Below, in pieces: positions 33,001 through 36,000 of a stretch of 64,000 nucleotides of DNA. A program made the position numbers. This DNA is from Harriotta raleighana (Eukaryota). Position 1 is the stretch's first letter; every line of letters begins with the position of its first letter. The stretch lies in assembly GCA_050575255.1 (NCBI GenBank), contig JBNZDD010013718.1, positions 8,486,579 to 8,550,578 on the forward strand, read 5' to 3'.

Positions 33001-36000
33001 GCGTCAAGGCTGAACATTTCTGTCCCAGATATCAGATCAAAGTGCTTTTGAAGTTTCTCTAAGATACAGTGTCCAAATGATTCTGAATACCAATTTTGGT
33101 TGGAGGCACAAAGAATAGTAGACTTGATTGAACGAATGGCATTTACACATATTACATAAGATGACAGTCTTTTAAGAGCTTGCTTGTTATGCAAATCNTG
33201 AACGAATGGCATTTACACATATTACATAAGATGACAGTCTTTTAAGAGCTTGCTTGTTACACATGGATTTTCAACAATGCCTGGAGCAATTGAGGTTTTT
33301 CTAAAAAATAAATGTTAACTTTTTTCACCCTCCCTCTCCTGTTAGGTGCTTGACTCCCTTTTCCATTTTCTGTGGCACAGTTCTAATCCAAAAGGGATAC
33401 TCTGCTGTACCAGCATGGTGAGGCTGAATAGCCTCTTTGTGTGATACAAAGTTCTATGATACATATTGAAAGGCTTTTTGATTACAGGAGGCATAATACA
33501 GGAGCCTGATCTATTCTTCCCAATAGTTTGTCAAAAATACATCTCCATCAGGGCATTATTGGATAGTGAGAAAGAGCAGGGTCCCTGTTTGATTTAAATC
33601 TTCCTTACCCAGGATATTATAGTTGGTTACTTCAGCACGGGACATCAGTCAGATCTAGGAGCTTCCTAGTAATTAAGCCTCAGGCTTACTCACCGAATAA
33701 ACTCACTGTGTGGGTGGAAACAGACTCTTAGTCACTGTACTTGAAGGAAAGTTGGTGCATTCATCGCAAAACTATATAACAATGATATATTGTAAAGGTA
33801 GCATGTGCTTTATGAGGTCACACTTCTTTATGTTTGCATCACTACCTGGATACAACAAACACACAACATCTAAATGTTGACACTCACATCTTCTCAAGAG
33901 CCTTGAGTACTGTTGTCCACTTTAAAAAATGAAATTAGAATTTGATGATCATAAACACAGTAGTTATATCTTACAAGCTCTTAATAATCAGAGGCAGAAG
34001 AAGGAATGTTGTGATGTGGTGATCAATGTTGGGTCCCATTCATTTGCAACTCACCAGAATATCCTGACCGCAGTCAGCCCCTATGTGAAAGATTTAATCT
34101 ACAGCTGCAACATCCAGCCTTCGGATGAGCTATCGGTCACCATCGATATAGATTACATGAGCCCACTGTCAGTGGAACAACTGCTGGATTATTTTTACAC
34201 AGGGAAGATCATCATCTCTGATAAAAATGTGGAGGACCTGTTGAAGGGGGCAAAGTACTTTATGATAAAACGACTTAAGTCACATTGTGTAGAGTACCTG
34301 CAACTCATTCTGGACCGACAGAACTATATGCACACTCTGATGCTAGCTGAGAACTATGATTTATTGGATTTATCACCAACAGTATATGCATACGTCAGAG
34401 ATGAATTTTCTGACCTATGTTCCACAGATGAATTTTTGGAATGCCCATATCATGTCTTACTAAAACTTATTAAGGATGAAGACCTACACGCTGACAGTGA
34501 GGACCAGGTGCTGCACACTATCATACAGTGGACAAAACATAATTTAGAAGATAGGAAAGTGCATTTATCAAAACTTTTTTCCAACATTCACTTGAATGGA
34601 GTCTCGGATGAAATGCTTTCAGAAGTCAGTAGCGAAGAGCCGCTGGTTAAGAATAATGCGAATGCTGTGGTAGCCATAGTCGATGTGTTGAGCCGTCGTA
34701 AGCAGGAAAACCCAAATAGCCTCTTGAATTTTCAGCGGAAGGGAACTCTGATGGATGTGGTACTTGTTCTAGGGGGTCAAAGTAGCGATGGCAATTTTCG
34801 CAATGGAATCTATGCATACATCATTGATGAAAATAAGTGGATCAAGATTACTCACATGCCTTATAGAGCGGCAGCTTTGGGTGCCGTCTCCACCCAGAAA
34901 TATTTGTATGTGACAGGAGGGACAAATGAGCAAAATGCCAGCTTAAAATCAGCCTGGAGATATGATCTTGACAAGTCTACTTGGAGCAAGCTACCAGACC
35001 TACCAATGGGATTGGTCTTCCATTCCATGATAGCTTGCAATGGATTAGTGTATACAGTGGGTGGAAGTGTGGCACCCAGAAAATATATCTCGACTATTTA
35101 TAGATATGATGAGAAGAAGGAAAAGTGGTCAACTATTGGAAGAATGAGTGTTCCTATGGACTGTGCTGAAATTGTAACCAAAGGGGACCGGTATATCTAC
35201 ATAGCAACAGGGAGATGTATGATAAATGAACGGATCTCCAGGGTAGGAGTGGTGGATTGTTTTGACACTATTACTGGCGAGGTGAAACAAAGCTTGACTT
35301 TCCCCATTGAGTTTAAGCACAGGCCAGTTGTAGCATTCCATGGGGAGCACAACCTCAGTGTGCAAAGCCATAAGCACAATATTGATGTGAATTTGCAGAA
35401 ATTCAAAGCAAATAAAACTGCCAAGAGAGTGCCATTGCTACCAAATTCCACCAAACTGGAGGTATGCCATGCAATGTGTCTCATCAGAGATATGGTGTTC
35501 GTCTGCGGTGGAACATCTGCTGTGGATGATGGTGATGTAAAAGAATATTCTGTGAACAAAAATGCTTTCATTTTAGAGGCAAATGCTGGGATGTGGAAGG
35601 AAGTGGCCAAACCAATTGAAGCCCTGGAGAGTTCAGCTTGCTGTACGACCAAACTGCAGTGTAAACTCATACAAAGACCCGAGAAAATTCCAACTAAACA
35701 AAAGTCAGACAATTAAGATACTATATTTTAAAAAATCTACCTATTCAATATTAATTGCAAATTGTTTTGTATCCTATTATAACAATAAAGGTATCAAACA
35801 CAAAATTCTTGTTGAAAATATTAGTCATAATCATTATAAAGAATGTTATTCAATTATATTATAGTCATAATCATTATAAAGAATGTTATTCAATTCATTT
35901 AATTTTCACTGATGCTAAACATTCTAGATTTTTGAATTCATCCAAATTAGAGTTCAATCCTCTGAGATACAATACTAATTTATAGTTCCAGAGCACTTTT

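What the first reader, a model, noticed from the sequence alone, without database searches (positions are those of the whole stretch)
33929..35716. Intact calicin gene in an apparently cartilaginous-fish genome, in a non-mammalian neighbourhood
Seen: an intact, intronless 595-aa ORF with calicin-specific motifs end to end, wedged between CART and the TUBGCP4 promoter, with its stop about 850 nt from the TUBGCP4 ATG. Known: calicin is characterised as a mammalian sperm perinuclear-theca protein; human CCIN is at 9p13 while TUBGCP4 and TP53BP1 are at 15q15. Inference: this sperm-head cytoskeletal component may date to the jawed-vertebrate ancestor, may be retained in internally fertilising lineages, and has changed genomic position in at least one lineage, plausibly by retroposition given the single exon.
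Basis: partly seen in the sequence, partly recalled or inferred. Interest (0 to 1): 0.72.

Follow-up and report, generated by a model that had tools for sequence, protein, structure and literature searches.

The report
Calicin gene in a chimaera genome
An intact single-exon gene for calicin, a sperm-head skeleton protein known from mammals, lies just upstream of TUBGCP4 in a chimaera-type fish genome; it is real and ancient, but the same gene is already annotated in related fish, so what is new is mainly its different chromosomal address.

Summary
Window 33929-35716 (+) is an uninterrupted 595-codon ORF, the longest in the window by more than threefold. It encodes a BTB-BACK-six-bladed-Kelch protein. 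The protein is 94% identical to annotated calicin of Callorhinchus milii and about 51% identical to mammalian calicin; the best non-calicin hit is 27% identical. It nests in a calicin clade that follows the vertebrate species tree. The stated neighbours are right: a CART-family gene upstream, and the TUBGCP4 ATG 853 nt after the calicin stop, followed by TP53BP1 tail-to-tail.

A jawed-vertebrate origin is supported, but databases already annotate calicin across non-mammalian vertebrates. The link to internal fertilisation fails. A changed genomic position is supported: calicin shares a chromosome with TUBGCP4/TP53BP1 in 2 of 2 testable elasmobranchs, but not in a turtle, a rodent or a frog. 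Retroposition is not supported as the cause, because mouse Ccin is also intronless (PMC3428356) and no retrocopy relics remain.

Verdict: an ordinary orthologue of a known gene, with a modest synteny point that my searches did not find in print.

The parts
33929..35716 (+). Calicin (CCIN) coding sequence, single exon, 595 codons plus TAA
   Evidence: ORF. It is 94% identical over 100% of its length to calicin of Callorhinchus milii and 51% identical to mammalian calicin. It sits in a calicin clade with 99* support.
33980..34303 (+). BTB/POZ domain (aa 18-125)
   Evidence: Pfam PF00651, 3.5e-26. 96% identical to C. milii and 50-52% to amniotes.
34331..34627 (+). BACK domain (aa 135-233)
   Evidence: Pfam PF07707, 3.5e-20. 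All-helical in the model. It is the least conserved domain, 34-36% identical to amniotes.
34748..35659 (+). Kelch beta-propeller (aa 274-577); Pfam sees only aa 277-447
   Evidence: Strands are continuous from 274 to 577 in the AlphaFold model, mean pLDDT 82. Foldseek covers whole six-bladed Kelch domains of KLHL12, KLHL2 and KLHL17 with target-normalised TM 0.76-0.81. Invariant residues extend to C571 and C572.
33773..33779 (+). TATA-like box, 156 nt upstream of the ATG, in a CpG-poor promoter region
   Evidence: TATATAA found. The upstream 500 nt has CpG o/e 0.16, with 3 CpG. Consensus match only; function is inferred.
35784..35789 (+). AATAAA polyadenylation signal, 68 nt after the stop codon
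   Evidence: It is the only AATAAA/ATTAAA between the calicin stop and the TUBGCP4 ATG. Inferred.
26949..30444 (+). CART-family neuropeptide gene (three coding exons, boundaries approximate: about 26949-27092, within 27624-27791, and about 30331-30444)
   Evidence: A signal-peptide-like ORF and a C-terminal six-cysteine exon were found. Pfam CART scores 1.7e-20 and 3.5e-8 on single exons.
36320..36819 (+). CpG-island-like TUBGCP4 promoter and first exon
   Evidence: GC 0.61 and CpG o/e 0.76. The GC rise is visible.
36570..52648 (+). TUBGCP4 (gamma-tubulin complex component 4), multi-exon, from ATG 36570 to the last coding ORF ending near 52645
   Evidence: Exon ORFs. Pfam GCP_N/GCP_C on 6 single exons. 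PDB GCP4 at 2.8e-33. 94% identical to C. milii GCP4 over one exon.
54700..64000 (-). 3' part of TP53BP1, tail-to-tail with TUBGCP4; it runs off the window end
   Evidence: Tudor exon 59746-60321(-), Pfam 53-BP1_Tudor 1.3e-42. BRCT-like exon 56269-56493(-). Named TP53BP1 hits.

Best explanation
This is the orthologue of calicin (CCIN) in a holocephalan (chimaera-type) genome. It is one gene with a single coding exon, its own CpG-poor TATA promoter and a short 3' UTR. It lies between a CART-family paralogue that mammals have lost and the housekeeping pair TUBGCP4/TP53BP1. Shown: the intact ORF, the BTB-BACK-six-bladed-Kelch fold, membership of one calicin orthogroup spanning jawed vertebrates, strong conservation along the whole length, and the adjacency to TUBGCP4. 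Also shown, at chromosome level, is linkage of calicin to this locus in elasmobranchs but not in a turtle, a rodent or a frog. Inferred from mammalian work: the protein is made in spermatids and acts as a structural scaffold of the sperm-head perinuclear cytoskeleton. In that model the BTB domain self-associates and the Kelch propeller binds actin and other theca proteins, tying acrosome, theca and nuclear envelope together. The intronless structure is ancestral to jawed vertebrates. The different address in chondrichthyans and tetrapods is best explained by an ordinary DNA-level rearrangement on one of the two stems. The direction is undetermined. The overall confidence given combines about 0.97 for the identity as a calicin orthologue, about 0.8 for the difference in position, and about 0.6 for the sperm-head function.
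For: Identity. In one search, 52 hits fall in the calicin range (449-1304 bits); 49 are named, all as calicin or calicin-like or as hypothetical proteins of vertebrates. A gap then separates them from 176 bits for the best non-calicin hit. In one search the best solved relatives are only KEAP1 (118.6 bits), gigaxonin and KLHL11. In one search the calicin clade has 99* support, chondrichthyans 100*, window plus Callorhinchus 97*, and tetrapods 100*; the only duplicates are lineage-specific (Anolis, Rhineura).

Constraint. There are 75 invariant columns across 27 orthologues, from Q21 to C572. Between the window and C. milii, BTB is 96% identical, the Kelch region 97% and the C-terminal blades 97%. 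That matches the 94% of a TUBGCP4 exon between the same two lineages.

Fold. Mean pLDDT 82 and pTM 0.66. There are full-length Foldseek matches to KBTBD2, KBTBD4 and KLHL22, and complete Kelch propellers are covered.

Gene anatomy. TATA-like box, in-frame upstream stop, AATAAA 68 nt after the stop, and a CpG-poor promoter (o/e 0.16) beside the CpG-rich TUBGCP4 promoter (o/e 0.76).

Synteny by contig-length fingerprint. Hemiscyllium calicin, TUBGCP4 and TP53BP1 all lie on a contig of 37,317,426 bp. Narcine calicin and TUBGCP4 both lie on 107,671,741 bp. The contigs differ in Emydura (26,010,659 vs 28,161,981), Arvicanthis (108,648,001 vs 149,323,608) and Ascaphus, same assembly (330,573,056 vs 19,915,241). 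As a control, TUBGCP4 and TP53BP1 share the contig length in 8 of 8 species that have both values.

Function in mammals. Passages of PMC10684152 describe CCIN as a calyx protein that binds actin and is needed for the inner-acrosomal-membrane/theca/nuclear-envelope connection. PMC3428356 lists mouse Ccin as spermatogenic-cell-specific and intronless.
Against: No expression or localisation data exist here for any cartilaginous fish, so the sperm-head role is extrapolated across roughly 450 million years. Mammalian calicin is described as a basic protein, whereas the window protein is slightly acidic (pI 6.48, net charge -5). All 7 chondrichthyan rows and Latimeria have net charge of 0 or below, against 15 of 19 other rows that are positive; one biochemical hallmark is therefore not shared. 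The tree used only 5 invertebrate KLHL proteins as outgroup. The vertebrate paralogues said to be closest (KLHL11, gigaxonin, KLHL39; PMC10146909) were not in it. The fingerprint shows a shared chromosome, not adjacency. It rests on 2 elasmobranchs and 3 informative bony vertebrates. For clusters with several members (Hemiscyllium 12, Emydura 32), the contig is assumed to belong to the named representative. Sturgeon and fin whale sit on small, different contigs and are uninformative. C. milii, coelacanth and lungfish could not be tested.
Confidence: 0.8

Rival explanations
1. Hidden paralogy. The chondrichthyan gene beside TUBGCP4 and the tetrapod gene in the 9p13-type region are two copies from the early vertebrate genome duplications, with reciprocal loss. 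In that case nothing moved and the two are not strict orthologues.
For: The window's neighbourhood belongs to a duplicated region. Passages of PMC4436185 say CART paralogues lie beside MAP1A, MAP1B and MAP1S and beside CRTC2 and CRTC3, and derive from two rounds of genome duplication. From recall, not tested: human 9p13 and 15q carry paralogue pairs such as TPM2/TPM1, TLN1/TLN2 and UNC13B/UNC13C. The base of the calicin tree (chondrichthyans, Latimeria, Acipenser, tetrapods) is an unresolved polytomy, so it does not exclude this.
Against: No species among the 49 named calicin hits carries two deeply divergent calicins; the Anolis and Rhineura pairs are recent duplicates. Path lengths from Latimeria to the chondrichthyan node (0.34+0.27) and to the tetrapod node (0.34+0.21) are similar, with no extra-long stem. 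This reading needs two independent complete losses.
Confidence: 0.12
2. Lineage-specific retroposition. An mRNA copy of calicin inserted at a new site in one lineage, and the parent copy was lost.
For: The coding sequence is intronless, and testis-expressed genes are frequent retrogenes (general knowledge).
Against: Mouse Ccin is likewise intronless (PMC3428356 Table 1), so the intronless state predates the split and cannot mark a later move. There is no A-rich tract after the AATAAA. The only direct repeat bracketing the gene is 15 nt at 87% identity. It lies 663 nt before the ATG and 485 nt after the stop, not at the transcript ends, and is of the size the tool itself calls often chance. The gene has its own TATA promoter.
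Confidence: 0.06
3. Rival mechanism. The protein works mainly as a substrate adaptor of a Cullin-3 ubiquitin ligase, like most BTB-BACK-Kelch proteins, and not as a structural element.
For: The best full-length structural matches are Cul3 adaptors solved with Cul3: KBTBD2, KLHL22 and KBTBD4. PMC10146909 argues that calicin has all the essential KLHL domains.
Against: Mammalian calicin is a stable, detergent- and salt-resistant component of the calyx, and its loss loosens acrosome-nucleus attachment (passages; abstracts listed). No Cul3 contact residues were examined here.
Confidence: 0.15
4. It is another KLHL/KBTBD subfamily member mislabelled as calicin by automatic annotation.
For: All non-mammalian names are automatic annotations.
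Against: It is 51% identical over 98% of its length to mammalian calicin, against 27% or less to any other hit. PDB relatives score at most 118.6 bits. The clade has 99* support and follows the species tree.
Confidence: 0.01

Closest known systems
Calicin of Callorhinchus milii (NCBI 'calicin', UniProt 'Calicin'; P0002)
   Same: 595 aa, 94% identical over 100% of the length. It is sister to the window protein in the tree, with 97* support.
   Different: 6% amino-acid divergence, so a different holocephalan lineage. The window branch is longer (0.046 vs 0.009). The genomic context of the C. milii gene could not be read here.
Mammalian calicin (CCIN), a sperm perinuclear-theca/calyx protein
   Same: Same orthogroup, same length class (588-591 aa), same BTB-BACK-Kelch layout and single coding exon.
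   Different: About 51% identity. The window protein is near neutral (pI 6.48) against the basic mammalian protein (pI 8.05-8.62 in Vombatus, Meles and Equus). The neighbours here are CART/TUBGCP4/TP53BP1 instead of the 9p13-type region (recalled). Expression and localisation are unknown here.
KLHL11 / gigaxonin (KLHL16) / KLHL39 clade of BTB-BACK-Kelch proteins
   Same: PMC10146909 and PMC3428356 (Klhl11, 27%) name them as the nearest paralogues. Gigaxonin and KLHL11 are among the top three PDB sequence hits.
   Different: At most about 27% identity. These are Cul3 adaptors with introns and broad expression (recalled).

Membership tests
Calicin (CCIN) orthogroup | BTB - BACK - Kelch propeller architecture over about 590 aa | tested here: met
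   Pfam BTB 18-125, BACK 135-233 and Kelch repeats. The model has strands from 274 to 577. Foldseek covers full six-bladed Kelch domains.
Calicin (CCIN) orthogroup | Closer to mammalian calicin than to any other BTB-Kelch protein | tested here: met
   693 bits and 51% identity to Meles calicin, against 176 bits and 27% for the best non-calicin hit. The best PDB chain scores 118.6 bits.
Calicin (CCIN) orthogroup | Monophyly with mammalian calicin in a tree | tested here: met
   The calicin clade has 99* support and follows the species tree. Caveat: the outgroup was 5 invertebrate KLHL proteins, with no vertebrate paralogues.
Calicin (CCIN) orthogroup | Single coding exon | tested here: met
   An uninterrupted ORF covers 98-100% of orthologues. 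Mouse Ccin is intronless (PMC3428356). A 5' UTR intron cannot be excluded.
Calicin (CCIN) orthogroup | Spermatid-specific expression and localisation in the perinuclear theca/calyx | not testable with these tools
   No transcript or protein data were available. The only indirect hint is a CpG-poor TATA promoter.
Basic cytoskeletal proteins of the mammalian perinuclear theca (biochemical class) | Net basic charge | tested here: not met
   pI 6.48 and net charge -5. All 7 chondrichthyan rows have net charge of 0 or below. I therefore file it as a calicin orthologue, not as a member of this biochemical class.
Cullin-3 substrate adaptors (KLHL/KBTBD) | BTB plus BACK/3-box plus substrate-binding propeller | tested here: met
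Cullin-3 substrate adaptors (KLHL/KBTBD) | Binding of Cullin-3 and ubiquitylation of a substrate | not tested
   Contact residues were not examined, and no complex prediction was run.
Processed retrogene (lineage-specific) | Intronless copy with poly(A) relic and target-site duplication, plus an intron-bearing parent elsewhere | tested here: not met
   There is no A-tract after the AATAAA. The only bracketing repeat is a 15-nt, 87% match away from the transcript ends. Mouse Ccin is also intronless. No parent gene is known, and the nearest paralogue is 27% identical.

The most novel reading that the evidence does not exclude
Calicin may be a component of an ancestral jawed-vertebrate sperm-head cytoskeleton whose presence tracks acrosome-bearing, theca-type sperm and not the mode of fertilisation. 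It is present in cartilaginous fish, coelacanth, sturgeon, amphibians, non-avian reptiles and mammals. It was not seen in teleosts (sperm without acrosome, recalled) or in birds. On this reading its original address was beside TUBGCP4/TP53BP1 in the 15q15-type region. The tetrapod gene then either moved to the paralogous 9p13-type region or is the surviving sister copy from the genome duplications. The basic charge of the amniote protein would be a later acquisition.
Probability: 0.2. Interest if true: 0.5.

Novelty: already known. Interest (0 to 1): 0.25.

Why it matters
The perinuclear theca is usually treated as a mammalian speciality, and all experiments on calicin are mammalian. An intact, strongly constrained calicin in holocephalans, sharks and rays places at least one core theca protein about 450 million years back. 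That offers a marker for asking whether cartilaginous-fish sperm heads have a comparable scaffold. The gene itself is already named in public annotation of related species, so the window adds no new kind of gene. What my searches did not find in print is the chondrichthyan linkage of calicin to TUBGCP4/TP53BP1, the absence of calicin from birds and teleosts in the searched set, and the neutral charge of the fish proteins. These are modest comparative-genomics points.

Tried and rejected
- (listing of cluster members) was meant to name ten unnamed representatives: possible divergent calicins P0062, P0070, P0083 and P0097, and near paralogues P0063, P0065 and P0067-P0071. The shared database was switched off.
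- (exhaustive representative search) cannot settle the absence of calicin from teleosts or birds. The whole calicin family collapses onto one 50% cluster representative (P0040, Ascaphus, 639 bits).
- One search was a badly designed literature query (14,209 papers) and gave nothing useful.
- the Cell Reports 2022 calicin paper is not held. I know it only from reference lists and from what PMC10684152 says about it.
- the held text of the 1987 J Cell Biol paper has none of my four terms. The 'basic protein' statement therefore rests on its title, on the abstract of PMC2119631 in the listing, and.
- A 15-nt direct repeat bracketing the gene (family D4) was considered as a target-site duplication. 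I rejected it as too short, imperfect and misplaced.
- The 157-aa antisense ORF at 35197-35670 was ignored. It lies inside the calicin coding sequence and its length is ordinary for this window.
- dN/dS could not be computed because no orthologue coding DNA is available here.
Gene order in other vertebrates was therefore approached only through contig-length fingerprints.
- Complex prediction, the protein-atlas search and the second structure job were not used, because no open question required them.
- Supplements and figures of PMC4436185 (Fig 3, S3 Fig), which may show the neighbours of each CART paralogue, could not be seen.
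Full report
OBSERVATION. One search finds one ATG-to-stop ORF at 33929..35716 on the + strand, 595 aa, exactly as reported. It is by far the longest ORF in the window; the next is 176 aa. With the window's stop-triplet frequency (0.0525), the chance of 595 open codons is 1.2e-14. An in-frame TAA sits two codons before the ATG. The window has five single N, none in the ORF; none was filled.

WHAT THE PROTEIN IS. Pfam gives BTB (aa 18-125, 3.5e-26), BACK (135-233, 3.5e-20) and Kelch repeats, recognised only up to about aa 447. 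An AlphaFold model built on 27 orthologues is confident (mean pLDDT 82, pTM 0.66) and shows beta-strands running on to aa 577. Foldseek matches the whole chain to the BTB-BACK-Kelch proteins KBTBD2, KBTBD4 and KLHL22. It also matches the C-terminal half to complete six-bladed Kelch domains of KLHL12, KLHL2 and KLHL17, with target-normalised TM 0.76-0.81. The part that Pfam misses is therefore the last blades of an entire propeller.

IS IT CALICIN? In the 5.8-billion-protein search (59 hits at E <= 1e-10 among 7421 candidates), the top hit is 'calicin [Callorhinchus milii]': 595 aa, 94% identity, 100% coverage. Shark and ray 'calicin-like' proteins follow at 78-81%, Latimeria at 59%, a caecilian and a sturgeon at 53%, and turtles, a crocodile, squamates and mammals at 47-52%. 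Frogs and salamanders are mostly at 43-47%, with the partial Pelodytes model at 40%. Fifty-two hits lie in this range (449-1304 bits). Forty-nine carry a source name, and three come from an unnamed source and were not used. The next hit drops to 176 bits and 27% identity. Against solved structures the best relatives are KEAP1 (118.6 bits), gigaxonin and KLHL11. That agrees with PMC10146909, which groups calicin with KLHL11, KLHL16 and KLHL39 (passage), and with PMC3428356, which gives Klhl11 (27%) as the closest mouse paralogue (Table 1 passage).

TREE. The maximum-likelihood tree has 32 rows. They are the window protein, 26 of the 52 calicin-range hits, and 5 named invertebrate KLHL proteins as outgroup. 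Left out were a low-quality Leucoraja model, partial models, redundant mammals and squamates, and all unnamed rows. The tree recovers a calicin clade (99*) that follows the species tree:
- chondrichthyans 100*, with window plus Callorhinchus at 97* and sharks plus rays at 98*;
- tetrapods 100*, amphibians 97*, amniotes 100*;
- Latimeria and Acipenser unresolved at the base.
The Anolis and Rhineura pairs are recent duplicates. The sturgeon protein, whose record is flagged 'UNVERIFIED_CONTAM', sits on its own long basal branch (0.59). That fits a ray-finned fish gene better than contamination from a sampled tetrapod. No vertebrate KLHL paralogue was in the tree, which is a limitation.

CONSTRAINT. 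The alignment of 27 orthologues has 75 invariant columns spread from Q21 to C572. Between the window and C. milii, identity is 96% in BTB, 84% in BACK, 97% in the Pfam-visible Kelch part and 97% in the C-terminal blades. That is as high as the 94% seen for a TUBGCP4 exon between the same lineages. dN/dS could not be computed because no orthologue DNA was available.

GENE ANATOMY. A TATA-like box (33773-33779) lies 156 nt before the ATG in a CpG-poor stretch (o/e 0.16, 3 CpG in 500 nt). The only AATAAA between the stop and the next gene is at 35784-35789, 68 nt after the stop. About 0.6 kb further on, the sequence turns CpG-island-like (GC 0.61, o/e 0.76) around the TUBGCP4 start. A tissue-restricted TATA gene placed directly in front of a housekeeping promoter is an inference from consensus features only.

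NEIGHBOURS.
- Upstream on the + strand lies a CART-family gene. It has a signal-peptide-like first exon near 26949, an exon within 27624-27791 (Pfam CART 3.5e-8), and a last exon ending with a stop after 30441 that carries the six-cysteine C-terminus (Pfam CART 1.7e-20).
- Downstream, TUBGCP4 starts at ATG 36570 (peptide MIHELLLALSGYPGS...), 853 nt after the calicin stop codon ends. Six further exons match Pfam GCP_N or GCP_C. One exon matches solved GCP4 chains at 2.8e-33, and another is 94% identical to C. milii GCP4.
- TP53BP1 lies tail-to-tail on the minus strand from about 54.7 kb to the window end (Tudor exon, 1.3e-42; named TP53BP1 hits).
- PMC4436185 (passages and figure legends) reports up to six CART genes in non-mammals. 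All but CART1 are lost in mammals, and they sit beside MAP1A/MAP1B/MAP1S paralogues. A CART gene in the TUBGCP4/TP53BP1 (MAP1A-type; human positions recalled) region is therefore expected and not odd. Which numbered CART this is was not determined; Fig 3 and the supplements could not be seen.

HAS THE GENE CHANGED ADDRESS? No vertebrate genome collection was available. I therefore used the 'longest_contig' column of the homologue tables as a fingerprint of the scaffold or chromosome that carries each protein.
- Seven species have a value both for calicin and for at least one of the two neighbours.
- Same contig: Hemiscyllium (37,317,426 bp for all three genes) and Narcine (107,671,741 bp for calicin and TUBGCP4).
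- Different contigs: Emydura (26,010,659 vs 28,161,981), Arvicanthis (108,648,001 vs 149,323,608) and Ascaphus within one assembly (330,573,056 vs 19,915,241).
- Different but small contigs, hence uninformative: Acipenser sinensis (198,893 vs 131,331) and Balaenoptera physalus (424,563 vs 337,765).
Together with the direct adjacency in the window, calicin is linked to this locus in 3 of 3 chondrichthyan lineages and in 0 of 3 informative bony vertebrates. Mouse Ccin is on chromosome 4 (PMC3428356); the human positions 9p13 and 15q15 are recalled. The fingerprint shows a shared chromosome, not adjacency. Searches list only the best 120 of 842 and of 341 hits, so most species were not seen. For multi-member clusters, the contig is assumed to belong to the named representative. 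With no outgroup, the direction of change is open.

WHY NOT RETROPOSITION. The single exon is shared with mouse, so it predates the split of cartilaginous and bony vertebrates and cannot mark a later jump. There is no A-rich relic after the polyadenylation signal. The only direct repeat bracketing the gene is 15 nt at 87%, far from the transcript ends. An ancient retroposition before the jawed-vertebrate ancestor remains possible but untestable here; the nearest paralogue is only 27% identical.

DISTRIBUTION. Among the 49 named calicin hits there is no bird and no teleost, although birds are abundant for TUBGCP4 and TP53BP1 in the same database. The frogs present are Ascaphus, Discoglossus and Pelodytes only. 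Presence in sturgeon, Discoglossus and Pelodytes (external fertilisers, recalled) and absence in birds (internal fertilisers) contradict the proposed link with internal fertilisation. A link with acrosome-bearing sperm fits teleosts (no acrosome, recalled) but not birds. The word-indexed search can miss divergent relatives. The exhaustive search collapses all calicins into one representative and so cannot settle absence, and the look-up that would have named the few divergent candidates was unavailable.

AN UNEXPECTED DIFFERENCE. Mammalian calicin is described as a basic protein (passage; abstract of PMC2119631). Over the columns homologous to the window protein, all 7 chondrichthyan rows and Latimeria have net charge between -5 and 0 (pI 6.37-7.21; window 6.48). 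By contrast, 15 of the other 19 rows are positive, up to +13; the exceptions are Ornithorhynchus, Ascaphus and Lissotriton (negative) and Rhineura B (zero). The basic character therefore seems to be acquired in parts of the bony-vertebrate tree and is not a property of the family as a whole.

MECHANISM. Shown: the fold and its conservation. Inferred from mammalian work seen in passages of PMC10684152 and PMC12940656: calicin sits in the calyx, binds actin, and connects the inner acrosomal membrane, the theca and the nuclear envelope, and its loss deforms the sperm head. I take the fish protein to do the same, with BTB-mediated self-association and a Kelch propeller as the binding platform. My confidence in that function is about 0.6. 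A Cullin-3 adaptor role is the main rival (0.15).

LITERATURE. 'calicin' plus 'shark' gave 0 papers. 'CCIN' plus 'TUBGCP4' gave 0. 'calicin' plus 'acrosome' plus 'teleost' gave 0. 'calicin' alone gave 73 papers, of which 40 were listed; all the listed titles that bear on the protein concern mammals or the KLHL family. So calicin outside mammals is documented in sequence databases, but I found no paper on it in the searched library. Subscription journals are largely missing from that library.

VERDICT. This is a real, intact, constrained calicin orthologue in a holocephalan genome, already annotated in the sister lineage. It is interesting mainly for its chondrichthyan-specific linkage to TUBGCP4/TP53BP1, its patchy vertebrate distribution and its non-basic charge.

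Noticed in passing
window 26949-30444 (+): A CART-family neuropeptide gene lies 3.5 kb upstream of calicin, in the TUBGCP4/TP53BP1 region. By position it should be one of the CART paralogues that mammals have lost (PMC4436185). Its C-terminus lacks the KCI and RCY signatures that the paper gives for CART4 and CART5. Which numbered paralogue it is was not determined.
   Followed up: partly
window, 11 loci: near 3526(-), 8606(-), 25013, 29689, 39675, 40784, 41275, 41948, 43309, 45460(-), 46509: An interspersed repeat recurs across the window, mostly in TUBGCP4 introns. It is recognisable by recurring translated signatures. One copy abuts the TUBGCP4 exon used as query and probably inflated that call's top hit (sturgeon, 206 bits at only 75% identity). 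The repeat family was not identified.
   Followed up: partly
window 33129-33189 and 33199-33259: Two exact 61-nt direct repeats lie 70 nt apart, about 0.7 kb upstream of calicin. They may be a recent tandem duplication or an assembly artefact.
   Followed up: no
window 35822-35855 and 35862-35895: Two exact 34-nt tandem copies lie in the short spacer between the calicin polyadenylation signal and the TUBGCP4 promoter.
   Followed up: no
window 7100-8400 and 62500-64000: These are low-complexity, GC-richer stretches with long spurious ORFs in several frames, made of simple repeats (PH/TH-rich and CV-rich translations near the window end; proline- and glycine-rich translations near 7.1-8.4 kb). 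The second lies within TP53BP1 introns or upstream exons.
   Followed up: no
protein level: Calicin net charge differs by lineage. It is neutral to slightly acidic in all 7 cartilaginous-fish rows and in coelacanth, and positive in 15 of 19 other rows. The 'basic protein' hallmark of mammalian calicin is therefore not ancestral.
   Followed up: yes
one search hit list: No Xenopus or neobatrachian frog calicin appears, only Ascaphus, Discoglossus and Pelodytes. Together with birds and teleosts, this hints at several independent losses, but the sensitivity of the search is limited.
   Followed up: no
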